Shown here one piece after another: positions 43,287 to 49,878 of a stretch of 64,000 nt of DNA. Made by a program: the position numbers. The DNA is taken from the NCBI RefSeq assembly GCF_963506605.1, contig NC_083292.1, positions 34,658,001-34,722,000 on the forward strand. The letters run 5' to 3'. The stretch comes from Zootoca vivipara. Taxonomy: Eukaryota. Position 1 is the first letter of the stretch. Each line of letters begins with the position of its first letter.

Positions 43287-44842
43287 TTATTATTTATACC
43301 CCGCCCATCTGGCCGGGTTCCCCCAGCCACTCTTCTAAAAGTTGTATAGTTCCTTTATCTCCTTGAAATCTGATGGGAGGGCGTTCCACAGGAACGGGCA
43401 GAACTGGGTCTTCATCTCCCGCATGGCAGCAGAGTCAAAGGTTCTCCAATATGCCATTCAACAGTGAAAGCCTATAAACGGACGACTCTGCCAATGCCTC
43501 CATCACTGTTCACAGCAAGAGGGGGTTAAAGAGCGCTTTGCGCTGTCACCTGACTTGTACAGTGGGTGAAGCAAACCCGTGTGCCCCCACCATCCCTTTC
43601 TCAATCCATGCTACTAGTCCCTGTGAGAAATTTTTTGCCACCGTCCAATTTTCTGTGAATTACGGAATCCTCTATGTAAACTAAGATCATGGCCACTGGT
43701 CCCATCACCTACTGGCAAATAGAAGGGGAAGAAATGGAGGCAGTGAGAGATTTTACTTTCTTTGGTTCCGTGATAACTGCGGATGGTGACAGCAGTCACG
43801 AAATTAGAAGACGCCTGCTTCTTCGGAGAAAAGCAATGACAAACCTAGACAGCATCTTAAAAAGCAGAGATATCACCTTACCGACAAAAGTCCATATAGT
43901 TAAAACTATGGTTTTCCCAGTAGTGATGTATGGAAGTGAGAGCTGGACCATAAAGAAGGCTGATTGCTGAAGAATTGATGCTTTTGAATTATGGTGCTGG
44001 AGGAGACTCTTGAGAGTCCCATGGACGGCAAGACGATCAAACCTATCCATTCTGAAGGAAATCAGCCCTGAGTGCTCACTGGAAGGACAGATCATGAAGC
44101 TGAGGCTCCAAGACTTTGGCCACCTCATGAGAAGAGAAGACTCCCTGGAAAAGACCCTGATGTTGGGAAAGATGGAGGGCACAAGGAGAAGGGGACGACA
44201 GAGGACGAGATGGTTGGACAGTGTTCTCGAAGCTAAGAACATGAGTTTGACCAAGCTGCGGGAGGCAGTGGAAGACAGGAGTGCCTGGCATGCTCTGGTC
44301 CATGGGGTCACAAAGAGTGGGACACAACTAAACGACTAAACAACAACAACTATGTAATCACCAAGGGAAAAAAGACAGGAAGGTCAGAGTTAATATTAAA
44401 AAGAAAATTTTATTGTTTTGAATTGAAATTGGAACACACCACGAGTGTGATCCACCAGGGCTTATTTGGGGCAACCCCTTATTTGGGGAAGTGGGCATTT
44501 GGGGCAACCCCGAAAGAATTCGTCGAATCCCATCGCCACACAAGCCAGGAAGCACAAGAACTCCTGGAAGTCCACTTCCTGATCCCGGTTGTGGTCCAGG
44601 TCATTCATGATCTTCTGGAATTCTGCCCCGTCCATTCGTTTCTGGGAGCATTGGAAAGAAAAATAGAAACTGTTAGCTTCAATAATTCAGAGCCTGTTTT
44701 TCTCTTCCTTCCTCTTCACTGTTTCCTTTCATGCCGTGTCTTTTTTTAGGTTGTGAAAAGGAGGGTTGGGATGGCATTGGGATTTTTTTAAAAAATAAAA
44801 AATAAAAATCTTATGAAATCAACTCTTGGAGTGGAGGTTTTT

Positions 44843-44889
<47 letters not shown>

Positions 44890-47800: not shown

Positions 47801-49878
47801 GTGGTTTGAGCCTGGGAGAACTTTCCACATAGAAGGGAAGTGCTCTACCACTGAGGTATGGTCCTTTCCTAAAGCAAGTCTAGAGGACACATGGTTCTCC
47901 AGATGTTGTCAGGCCACAACTCTGGCCATTGGCCAGGGATGATGGGGCTAGAGGAACTTGGGAGTCCATAAAGCCTGGCAGAGCCATATGTCCCTCTGTC
48001 CTGCTCTAATGGGAGCCAACATCTTCAGAACATCCTAGCATCCTTCACTACCTTTCCCTTAGCAAAAAGTTCTGTCTGAGCCAGTTGAATGTCATCCTCC
48101 CCAACACAAGAATTTGAGCCACAAAGAAGGGGAATTCTACAGGATTTGCGAACATCTGTCTCTCGACCTCGTTCCAAGGCCCTGGAGGGCTCTATCGGGG
48201 ACATCTCCTCTCGGGATTTCACAAAAACACACACACTGCCAGCTGTTTTGAGTTGCTGATGGAAGGGAGGACAGGAAGAGACTTACCAAGAAGAATAGTA
48301 GCACGGATTCTTGAGCCAAAGTAGAGGGATGCTGTCTGAGTACAGTTGATGGAGGCCCCTTATACCCTCTCCAGGTCCAACCTCCCAAGGCACCACCTGA
48401 CCTGATGGACTCTGTATTGGCCAATAACAAAGCACATCATTTGTGGAGTGTTTTCCCTGCCCAACAGCTGATTGGCTCGTGGGGGTCTCTGGACACGGCA
48501 AACCAACCAACCAGCCTGTCCCTTGCCCATCCTGCATCACCCACCGACGCCCCATTTTTGCCCAGCCAGGTGTGTAACCTCATCAGGCTCCATGCATGGG
48601 CCACTGGCCTCGCATCCTGACAGGTCACAGGCTGCTGATGTGCCGCCCCCAGATGCGATCTGACACTTGAGCATATCCCACGAGGCGCATGGATTCTGAT
48701 GGTTCAGTTGCCTCGCTTAACCCCTTCTGATTGGGGGAACCATGAGTAAGAACACCGGAAGACTGCTGGATCAGGCCGATGGCATGTCTAGTCTGGCATC
48801 TGTTCTCACGGTGGCCAACCAGATGTCCCTGGGAAACCAGCAAGCAGAATCCAAGAACAAAAGGATGTCCTCTTCCTGTGGATGGGCCATTGGCCTGGTT
48901 CAGGAAGGATCAGTTTCTGTTCTTATGTCTGTCCCAGGCTAGATTTGGGGGCAGGCAATCTTGGCGGCTGCCCCAAACAGGGAGAACAGGATTCATGTAT
49001 TCCAAAACAACATGTGAATTGAAATTCAGCGCTCCTTTGATATCCCCACTCCTCTGAATTTTGCAGTGCAGTTCTCCAGCCACGAAACATGTCCCAAAAT
49101 GCACATACAGTCATACCTTGGCTCCTGAACGCCTTGGGAATCGAACGTTCCAGCTCCTGAATGATCAAAAACCAGAAGTGAGTGCTATGGTTTTTTAACG
49201 TTCTTTTGGAAGCCGAATGTCCGATGGGGCTTCCGGTTGGCTGCAGGAGCTTGCTGCAGCCAATCAGAAGCCGTGCTTTGGTTTTTGAACATTTCGAAAG
49301 TCGAACAGACTTCCGGAACGGATTCTGTTCGACTTCTGAGGTATGACTGTACTAGGATTAAGCATGCTTAAAATGGCATGTATAGCAGAAAACAACATGC
49401 ATAGATGTGTTGCGTTTTGGAAAGTTCCTTTGCGCGCACACACACACACAAAAGGTGTCCTATTTGTAACTGAAGGTTACCTGTTGCACCTGGAGCGATG
49501 AGAGAAAAGAGAAGCCCTTGGAGGGATGATCCCATTCATAATAAAATAAAATAATAATAACAATAATTTATTATTTGTAGCCCACCCATCTGGCTGGGTC
49601 TCCTCAGCCACTCTGGGCAGCTTCCGACAAAGATTAAAAATACATTAAAATGTCACACATTAAAAACTTCCCTAAACAGGGCTGCCTTCAGATGTCTTCT
49701 AAATCTCTCTTTGTGGCACTCAAAGGAGTTTCAGAAGACCCTTGGCCAGCATTTGTGCTAGGGTAAATCCACTGGTAAATATTCAATAATTGACCTGTTG
49801 ATTAAAAATATTAATAATTAACCGTGGATTTCAATAACTGGCACTGCAAGCTAAATTCAGCCTGCAAGTTGTAATGCA

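What the first reader, a model, noticed from the sequence alone, without database searches (positions are those of the whole stretch)
44462..48425. Extra S100A4-like paralogue beyond S100A2, with complete promoter and gene structure
Seen: a fourth intact S100 gene with CCAAT, TATA, exon 1 donor, Kozak ATG, both EF hands and a polyA signal. It is most like S100A4 (PLEK, KYKLNK, FQKI, LACVAM) but has the A2-type EMKE. Known: in human the next gene after S100A2 is S100A16, which this does not resemble. Inference: it is either a sauropsid- or squamate-specific duplicate or an ancestral A2-A4 clade member lost in mammals. The change MCNxFF->GFDEFF in helix IV may alter target binding such as myosin IIA.
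Basis: partly seen in the sequence, partly recalled or inferred. Interest (0 to 1): 0.72.

Follow-up and report, generated by a model that had tools for sequence, protein, structure and literature searches.

The report
Extra S100A4-like calcium-binding gene
An intact, old, extra copy of an S100A4-type calcium-sensor gene sits at the head of a row of three related S100 genes in a non-human, reptile-like genome; this is an ordinary expansion of a known family, not a new kind of gene.

Summary
On the minus strand at 48425-44409 lies a canonical three-exon S100 gene:
- CCAAT and TATA boxes, then a short non-coding exon 1 with a GTAAGT donor.
- Exon 2, 46783-46636, with a caccATGG start and 47 codons.
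- Exon 3, 44641-44462, with 59 codons plus TAA.
- AATAAA 48 nt after the stop.

Both EF-hand loops are intact. It is the fourth of four tandem S100 genes in the window, all on the same strand.

Searched exon by exon, both exons score best against S100A4 and then S100A2. Another gene in the window (g1, 17651-15586) matches S100A4 far better, so g1 is the A4 counterpart and this gene is an extra paralogue.

The duplication is old:
- Synonymous sites are saturated (pS 0.73-0.78) while pN is 0.13-0.27.
- Only the two coding exons still align with the paralogues.

A recent squamate-only copy and a dead relic are therefore both unlikely. Whether the gene arose before or after the mammal-sauropsid split could not be tested, because no vertebrate sequence collection was available. 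Transcription is also untested.

The helix IV changes and a Cys/Pro-rich tail that replaces the basic A4 tail are real. Their effect on targets is inference only. I judge it a new member of a known kind, of low interest.

The parts
48416..48425 (-). Proximal CCAAT box (48420-48416) with an adjoining inverted ATTGG (48425-48421). A second CCAAT lies at 48475-48471.
   Evidence: Read. Part of the only CCAAT..TATAWR..GTRAGT composite in the window.
48358..48364 (-). TATA box, TATAAGG, in a CpG-poor region (GC 0.53, CpG o/e 0.24 over 48281-48580).
48287..48336 (-). Putative non-coding exon 1, about 50 nt. The 5' end is inferred as about 25-30 nt after the TATA box. It has no ATG and ends CTTG|GTAAGT.
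   Evidence: Read. The start site is inferred, and there are no transcript data.
46784..48286 (-). Intron 1 (GT..AG). It holds a SINE-like repeat at 47287-47528.
46636..46783 (-). Exon 2: 7 nt of leader, caccATGG start (ATG 46776-46774), 47 codons (helix I, pseudo EF-hand loop at 46719-46678, helix II, hinge). The following intron is phase 0.
   Evidence: Pfam S_100 72.5 bits. Best PDB match S100A4, 65.7 bits.
44642..46635 (-). Intron 2 (gtaagt..cccag). It holds a (TAA)15 microsatellite at 44844-44888 and dispersed repeats.
44462..44641 (-). Coding part of exon 3: 59 codons plus TAA (44464-44462). It covers helix III, the canonical EF-hand loop D-H-N-R-D-Q-E-V-D-F-Q-E at 44596-44561, and helix IV with GFDEFF.
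   Evidence: EF-hand_1 25.1 bits. Best PDB match S100A4, 56.3 bits.
44465..44512 (-). C-terminal tail, residues 91-106 (RGCPKCPLPQIRGCPK), Cys/Pro-rich. It contains two exact short direct repeats in the DNA: 15 nt at spacing 33 and 11 nt at spacing 17.
44409..44414 (-). AATAAA polyadenylation signal, 48 nt after the stop codon.
35899..38793 (-). Context: neighbour g3, called S100A2-like by position. Coding exons 38793-38653 and 36060-35899.
25525..27488 (-). Context: neighbour g2, a divergent and only weakly S100A3-like gene. Coding exons 27488-27342 and 25686-25525.
15586..17651 (-). Context: neighbour g1, the S100A4 counterpart. Coding exons 17651-17511 and 15744-15586.

Best explanation
This is a real, intact gene for a 106-residue S100 protein (47 + 59 codons). 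It is a fourth member of the S100A2-A6 subfamily, at the 5' end of a head-to-tail row: candidate, A2-like g3, weakly A3-like g2, then A4 (g1). It arose by an old tandem duplication and is closest to the S100A4 lineage, but it is not the S100A4 orthologue.

Inferred mechanism, from what is established for the family: a small EF-hand Ca2+ sensor that dimerises through helices I and IV. Ca2+ binding at the canonical loop opens a hydrophobic cleft (hinge, helix III, helix IV) that clamps helical segments of target proteins.

Shown here:
- Gene structure, an intact reading frame, and both Ca2+ loops with every ligand position conserved.
- Long-term purifying selection.
- Part of the S100A4 target cleft kept (F45, F55, C81, M84, F89, F90).

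Inferred only:
- Different target preference and regulation from S100A4. The grounds are the changes V77C, L46H, M85G, C86F and N87D, and the replacement of the basic A4 tail by a Cys/Pro-rich tail. The protein has 6 Cys in 106 residues, against 2-3 in the neighbours.
- The cysteines and the conserved H17 make Zn2+ or redox sensitivity plausible.
- The TATA-containing, CpG-poor promoter suggests tissue-restricted rather than housekeeping expression.
For: Structure:
- Searches give GT-AG introns, phase 0, the same layout in all 4 genes, and no N in the window.

Family:
- S_100 72.5 bits for exon 2, and EF-hand_1 25.1 bits for exon 3.

PDB searches, exon by exon:
- Exon 2: the top 11 of 60 rows shown are S100A4 (65.7 bits to 1m31), followed by S100A2 at 55.4.
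- Exon 3: the top 10 rows are S100A4 (56.3 bits). S100A2 scores 43.9.
- g1 scores 72.2 and 90.0 to S100A4.

In-window identity:
- Candidate against g1: 34/47 and 29/53.
- Against g3: 30/47 and 21/54.
- Against g2: 23/47 and 16/54.

Quartet by distance: (candidate, g1)|(g2, g3) in 84.75% of 2000 bootstraps.

Constraint against g1:
- Exon 2: pN 0.13, pS 0.73, Fisher p = 3e-10.
- Exon 3: pN 0.27, pS 0.78, Fisher p = 5e-7.

Age: only the two coding exons match the paralogue loci, at 70% and 75% nucleotide identity. All other matches are dispersed repeats.

Neutral decay simulation: the chance of keeping the ATG, no premature stop and 6 splice nucleotides is 0.010 at 0.25 substitutions per site and 0.0004 at 0.5. 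Indels were ignored.

Other:
- Promoter composite unique in the window.
- Residue states against the contact residues in Ramagopal 2013 (passages).
- The role of the basic tail in S100A4: Duelli 2014 (abstract).
Against: - There are no transcript data, so exon 1, the start site and expression are inferred.
- pN/pS covers both branches since the duplication, so a recent loss of constraint on this copy alone cannot be excluded.
- The grouping with A4 is moderate. Strictly informative quartet sites are 2 against 1 against 2. In exon 3 alone the bootstrap is 641 of 1000.
- All in-window genes except g2 score high on S100A4 in exon 2, and g3 exon 2 scores higher on A4 than on A2. Part of the 'A4-likeness' may therefore be shared conservatism of A4.
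- The candidate shares M34 and C93 with g3, not with g1.
- EF-hand_1 on exon 3 alone is 0.3 bits under Pfam's curated cutoff.
- The 3 other S100 genes lack the promoter composite, so it is not a family signature.
- No Ca2+, dimer or target binding was tested.
Confidence: 0.7

Rival explanations
1. It is a tandem duplicate (co-orthologue) of its neighbour S100A2. It looks A4-like only because it kept ancestral residues that A4 also kept, while g3 and mammalian A2 evolved faster.
For: - It is directly adjacent to g3.
- It shares M34 (the 'EM' of EMKE/EMRE) and C93 with g3 but not with g1.
- S100A2 is its second-best human match in both exons.
- g3 exon 2 itself scores higher on A4 (61.7) than on A2 (54.2). 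This shows that similarity to A4 is a biased guide.
Against: - The quartet (g3, candidate)|(g1, g2) was recovered in only 7.9% of 2000 bootstraps, against 84.75% for (g1, candidate).
- Identity to g3 is 30/47 and 21/54, against 34/47 and 29/53 to g1.
- The candidate shares K7, K26, C81 and M84 with g1 and human A4, not with g3 or g2.
Confidence: 0.15
2. It is a recent, squamate- or species-specific copy of S100A4.
For: - Three motifs are shared with the same-genome A4 but not with human A4 in the printed alignments: KYKLNK against KFKLNK, FQKI against FQKL, ACVAM against SCIAM.
Against: - Synonymous sites against g1 are saturated (pS 0.73 and 0.78). That is as high as between g1 and g2 or g3.
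- No intron or flank similarity to the g1 locus survives. Only the exons match, at 70-75%.
- By my count from the alignments, the candidate is about as far from g1 (34/47, 29/53) as from human A4 (34/47, 29/48).
Confidence: 0.05
3. It is a non-functional relic (an unexpressed or decaying copy) whose frame is open by chance.
For: - No expression evidence is available here.
- The tail shows micro-duplications that changed the C-terminus.
- Non-conservative changes in helix IV (M85G, C86F).
Against: - The open frame, ATG, all 6 splice nucleotides, the polyA signal and all 10 Ca2+-loop positions are kept despite saturated synonymous divergence.
- The simulated chance of that under neutrality is 0.01 or less, ignoring indels.
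- pN is far below pS.
Confidence: 0.05
4. It is the true orthologue of S100A5 or S100A6 moved to a new place. No A5/A6-like exon is seen downstream of g1 in the window.
For: - No further S100 exon lies in 1-15585. From recall, A5 and A6 follow A4 closely in human.
Against: - The scores are far below those for A4: A5 48.3 and 30.2 bits, A6 47.7 and 37-40 bits, against A4 65.7 and 56.3.
- The window simply may not reach A5/A6.
Confidence: 0.03

Closest known systems
S100A4 (metastasin/Mts1/FSP1)
   Same: - Best match of both exons (65.7 and 56.3 bits).
- Same two-coding-exon layout with a phase-0 intron in the hinge.
- Both Ca2+ loops intact.
- Keeps F45, F55, C81, M84, F89 and F90 of the myosin-IIA binding surface.
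   Different: - It is not the orthologue. g1 in the same window scores 72.2 and 90.0 bits.
- It lies on the far side of the A2-like gene.
- V77C, L46H, M85G, C86F and N87D.
- The basic tail is replaced by RGCPKCPLPQIRGCPK.
- 6 Cys against 2 in g1.
S100A2
   Same: - Second-best human match (55.4 and 43.9 bits).
- Immediate neighbour of the A2-like gene g3.
- Shares M34 and a Cys at position 93 in a G/E-C context with g3.
- From recall only: human A2 binds Zn2+ through Cys residues, including one near the C-terminus.
   Different: - Lower identity to g3 than to g1 (30/47 and 21/54 against 34/47 and 29/53).
- The quartet does not group it with g3.
S100A3
   Same: - Cysteine enrichment of a small S100 protein. 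Human A3's high Cys content is recall.
- Same subfamily and cluster.
   Different: - Weak similarity (43.3 and 32-34 bits).
- The cysteines sit in different places, mostly in the tail.

Membership tests
S100 protein family | N-terminal S100-specific (pseudo) EF-hand with a 14-residue loop | tested here: met
   Pfam S_100 PF01023 at 72.5 bits against a cutoff of 22, on exon 2 alone. The loop [14 protein letters not shown] has S20, E23, D25, K28 and E33. The ligand roles of these positions are recalled from S100A4 structures.
S100 protein family | C-terminal canonical 12-residue EF-hand loop | tested here: met
   The loop DHNRDQEVDFQE has D63, N65, D67, E69 and E74 and aligns without gaps to S100A4. 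Pfam EF-hand_1 scores 25.1 bits for the exon alone, 0.3 under the curated cutoff of 25.4. The same model scores 18.1 on the exon 3 peptide of g1.
S100 protein family | Gene layout: non-coding exon 1, then two coding exons split in the hinge by a phase-0 intron | tested here: met
   The coding exons and GT-AG borders are the same in all 4 genes of the window. Exon 1 is inferred from TATA plus GTAAGT, not from transcripts.
S100 protein family | Ca2+ binding and dimer formation | not testable with these tools
   This needs the protein. Folding or complex prediction would need the joined exons, and that step was left out.
S100A4 orthologue group | Best mutual match to S100A4 among the genes of the genome | tested here: not met
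   Its best match is S100A4, but g1 matches S100A4 better: 72.2 + 90.0 bits against 65.7 + 56.3.
S100A4 orthologue group | Position between A3 and A5 in the cluster | tested here: not met
   The order on the minus strand is candidate, g3, g2, g1. g1 holds the A4 place.
S100A4 orthologue group | Myosin-IIA contact residues and basic C-terminal tail | tested here: inconclusive
   C81, M84, F45, F55, F89 and F90 are kept. V77C, L46H, L58I, M85G and C86F are changed. The tail is not basic-rich. Binding itself was not tested.
S100A2 orthologue group | Closest to S100A2 by sequence and grouped with the A2 gene of the same genome | tested here: not met
   A2 is second to A4 in both exons. The quartet grouping with g3 was recovered in 7.9% of bootstraps.
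S100A5/A6 and S100A16 | Closest to A5, A6 or A16 by sequence | tested here: not met
   A5 scores 48.3 and 30.2 bits. A6 scores 47.7 and 37-40 bits. No A16 chain is among the rows shown, 60 of 86 and 60 of 65.

The most novel reading that the evidence does not exclude
The gene is a sixth ancestral member of the S100A2-A6 cluster, already present in the amniote (or tetrapod) ancestor next to A2 and later lost in mammals. It would have specialised through its cysteine-rich tail and altered helix IV into a Zn2+- or redox-gated sensor, with targets different from those of S100A4.
Probability: 0.2. Interest if true: 0.4.

Novelty: new member of a known kind. Interest (0 to 1): 0.2.

Why it matters
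If the gene is conserved across sauropsids, the A2-A6 cluster had or gained one more member than the mammalian set. That refines the duplication history given by Wheeler et al. 2016, who note only that 'several duplicates' were 'preserved in Sauropsids'.

It would also be a natural S100A4 variant. The core cleft residue C81 is kept, but helix IV and the tail are changed, which is useful for asking what sets target choice in low-specificity S100 proteins.

It does not open a new question. Annotation pipelines would probably call it 'S100-A4-like', though I could not check that.

Tried and rejected
- More S100 genes in the window: per-exon profiles built from the 4 genes were run on 2169 six-frame pieces of 20 aa or more. 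They found only the 4 known exon pairs. The next best E-values were 0.37 (exon 2) and 1.2 (exon 3). No S100A16, A5 or A6 was detectable, though a very divergent exon could be missed.
- Flank ORFs: of 8 sent to Pfam, 1 matched (a retroelement pol) and 7 gave nothing.
- Literature on an extra A4-like gene beside A2 in reptiles: searches found no such description. Only the general statements of Wheeler 2016 and the 2017 preprint turned up.
- The promoter composite as a family signature: rejected, because 0 of the other 3 S100 genes have it.
- A dN/dS value: not obtainable, because dS is saturated (NaN or above 1.1 for all pairs). Only the contrast between pN and pS is reported.
- Parsimony quartet: uninformative (2/1/2 sites).
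- A repeat finder on the minus strand was answered with an error and was repeated on the plus strand.

Not done:
- Folding, fold search, complex prediction, or any search with the joined 106-residue protein.
- The protein-atlas search, which is meant for unexplained proteins.
- The search for related loci and genome contigs, which hold bacteria and archaea only.
- The search for homologous proteins, the search of protein representatives and the metagenome and viral collections, which were closed. The gene's distribution across species therefore stayed unchecked.
- The supplements of Wheeler 2016 (species-by-gene tables), which were closed and may already list this gene.
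Full report
SCOPE AND LIMITS

Every search with this spliced gene model was done exon by exon. This leaves the three-dimensional model and the dimer untested.

I do not take the window for human. Its best S100A4-type gene differs from the human chains in the Protein Data Bank, and it is full of repeats that I recall as squamate-type SINEs. The window has no N.

No vertebrate sequence collection was available. So the gene's presence in other species stayed unchecked.

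WHAT IS THERE

The gene is on the minus strand. Read, it has these parts:
- A CCAAT box at 48420-48416, with an inverted ATTGG abutting at 48425-48421, and a second CCAAT at 48475-48471.
- TATAAGG at 48364-48358.
- A putative non-coding exon 1 of about 50 nt without an ATG, ending CTTG|GTAAGT. Its last base is 48287.
- Intron 1 to the acceptor ttttcag at 46784.
- Exon 2 at 46783-46636, with caccATGG (ATG at 46776) and 47 codons, followed by gtaagt.
- Intron 2 of about 2 kb.
- Exon 3 from 44641, after ctcccag, with 59 codons and TAA at 44464-44462.
- AATAAA at 44414-44409, 48 nt past the stop.

Pfam on each exon alone gives S_100 at 72.5 bits (cutoff 22) for exon 2. For exon 3 it gives EF-hand_1 at 25.1 bits, against a cutoff of 25.4. 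All ten loop positions I checked are in place: S20, E23, D25, K28, E33, D63, N65, D67, E69 and E74.

The composite CCAAT..TATAWR..GTRAGT occurs once in the window on both strands, and it is here. Shuffles gave a mean of 0.185 per window, which is about 0.004 per 3 kb of one strand. I defined that pattern after seeing the site, and none of the other three S100 genes has it, so it counts for little beyond 'consistent'. The promoter region is CpG-poor, with an observed/expected ratio of 0.24.

SURROUNDINGS

The window holds exactly four S100 genes. All are on the minus strand, and all have the same two coding exons and a phase-0 intron:
- The candidate, 46776-44462.
- g3, 38793-35899.
- g2, 27488-25525.
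- g1, 17651-15586.

Profiles of each exon, run on 2169 six-frame pieces, found nothing else. The next best E-values were 0.37 and 1.2.

The per-exon PDB scores to human S100A4, A2 and A3 are as follows.

| Gene | Exon | A4 | A2 | A3 |
|---|---|---|---|---|
| g1 | exon 2 | 72.2 | 58.2 | - |
| g1 | exon 3 | 90.0 | 57.9 | - |
| candidate | exon 2 | 65.7 | 55.4 | 43.3 |
| candidate | exon 3 | 56.3 | 43.9 | 32-34 |
| g3 | exon 2 | 61.7 | 54.2 | - |
| g3 | exon 3 | 50.5 | 55.3 | - |
| g2 | exon 2 | 37.6 | 43.8 | 35.5-36.4 |
| g2 | exon 3 | 39.4 | 38.3 | 40.3-41.2 |

Only g1 can be named with confidence, as S100A4. g3 and g2 are 'A2' and 'A3' mainly by their place in the row. The candidate lies one step beyond g3. 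What lies further out is not in the window.

RELATIONSHIP AND AGE

The candidate's identities to the other in-window genes are:
- To g1: 34/47 and 29/53.
- To g3: 30/47 and 21/54.
- To g2: 23/47 and 16/54.

A distance quartet, with columns resampled inside each exon and only the counts pooled, gives (candidate, g1)|(g2, g3) in 84.75% of 2000 bootstraps. Exon 2 alone gives 853 of 1000 and exon 3 alone 641 of 1000. Strictly informative sites are only 2, 1 and 2 for the three splits. So A4-side affinity is moderately supported, no more.

The candidate also shares M34 and C93 with g3. A duplicate of A2 that kept ancestral residues therefore remains a live rival.

The duplication is old:
- pS against g1 is 0.73 (exon 2) and 0.78 (exon 3), which is saturated and as high as between the other paralogues.
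- blastn of 43500-49500 against the rest of the window matched paralogue loci only at the two coding exons, at 70% and 75% identity. All other matches were dispersed repeats.

By my count from the alignments printed, the candidate is as far from human S100A4 (34/47 and 29/48) as from g1.

Three states (Y27, I58, V82) are shared only with the same-genome A4. One state (M34) goes the other way. This is too little to say whether the duplication came before or after the mammal-sauropsid split.

IS IT ALIVE?

pN is far below pS. In exon 2 it is 0.13 against 0.73 (Fisher p = 3e-10), and in exon 3 it is 0.27 against 0.78 (p = 5e-7).

In a substitution-only simulation, the chance of keeping the ATG, an open frame and the six splice nucleotides was 0.010 at 0.25 substitutions per site and 0.0004 at 0.5.

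These results argue for long-term constraint. They cannot exclude a recent loss of constraint, and expression is untested.

HOW IT LIKELY WORKS

By family knowledge, S100 proteins are Ca2+-switched dimers whose opened cleft binds helical target segments. The candidate has what that needs at the sequence level.

I compared it with the S100A4 residues that Ramagopal et al. 2013 name (passages read). Those are Val77, Cys81 and Met84 across the dimer, where C81A and C81S cut myosin-IIA binding 20- and 55-fold, and the cleft residues Phe45, Leu46, Phe55 and Leu58, plus Phe89 and Phe90.
- Kept: C81, M84, F45, F55, F89 and F90.
- Changed: V77C, L46H, L58I, M85G, C86F and N87D.

Duelli et al. 2014 (abstract only) report that the basic S100A4 tail tunes Ca2+ affinity. 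Here that tail is replaced by RGCPKCPLPQIRGCPK. The protein has 6 Cys in 106 residues, against 2-3 in the neighbours.

The tail DNA holds an exact 15-nt repeat at an in-frame spacing of 33 nt and an 11-nt repeat at a spacing of 17 nt. The last 11 codons therefore look like a local micro-duplication, and the protein may once have ended ...FFRGCPK. That is inference.

Altered target choice and Zn2+ or redox sensitivity are plausible, but nothing here shows them.

KNOWN OR NEW?

Wheeler et al. 2016 (passages and section 7 read) state three things:
- The A2-A6 clade arose in early tetrapods.
- It had the full mammalian complement by the amniote ancestor.

Their species tables are in supplements I could not open. 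The 2017 preprint (passages) places A2, A3 and A4 as a close outgroup to A5/A6.

Six literature searches found no description of this particular gene.

I rate it a new member of a known kind. It is most likely already predicted by annotation pipelines, which I could not check.

VERDICT

Interest is low.

Noticed in passing
window 7304-10972, minus strand: An uninterrupted 1223-codon ORF of a Ty3/gypsy-type retroelement pol. Pfam finds a weak aspartyl protease match, RVT_1, two RNase H-like domains, an integrase zinc domain and the rve core. It sits about 4.6 kb beyond the 3' end of the A4 gene. I described it only.
   Followed up: partly
window 58501-59000: A strong CpG island (GC 0.78, CpG o/e 0.72) with no Pfam-recognisable ORF: the one ORF tested there, 58592-59077 on the minus strand, gave nothing. 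It may be the promoter or first exon of the next gene beyond the candidate.
   Followed up: partly
window 1-15585: No S100A5- or S100A6-like exon lies in the 15.5 kb downstream of the A4 gene. From recall, A5 and A6 follow A4 within a few kb in human. The interval is occupied by repeats and the retroelement.
   Followed up: partly
window 27488-25525 (g2) and 38793-35899 (g3): The 'A3' and 'A2' labels of the two middle genes rest on position. g2 exon 2 scores best on S100A2 (43.8), its exon 3 is only narrowly best on A3 (41.2 against 39.4 for A4), and it has 3 Cys in 103 residues. g3 exon 2 scores higher on A4 than on A2.
   Followed up: partly
window 47287-47528 (intron 1 of the candidate): A SINE-like repeat of about 240 nt with 7 further copies in the window at 82-93% identity, at 4731, 15867, 18667, 19846, 20192, 59676 and 63682. 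I recall the sequence type as a squamate SINE, but no tool named it.
   Followed up: no
window 43886-44350, just past the candidate's polyA signal: A repeat of about 465 nt with copies at 94-95% identity at 62767-63231, 60792-61120 and 30460-30754. The copies near 61 and 63 kb overlap ORFs that look to me like the C-terminal end of a LINE reverse transcriptase, but Pfam found nothing in them.
   Followed up: partly
window 44844-44888 (intron 2): A perfect (TAA)15 microsatellite. The same microsatellite recurs at about 7 other places in the window.
   Followed up: no
window 44461-44511: Exact short direct repeats inside the last codons and the stop of the candidate: 15 nt at spacing 33 and 11 nt at spacing 17. 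They suggest the C-terminal 11 residues were added by a micro-duplication.
   Followed up: partly
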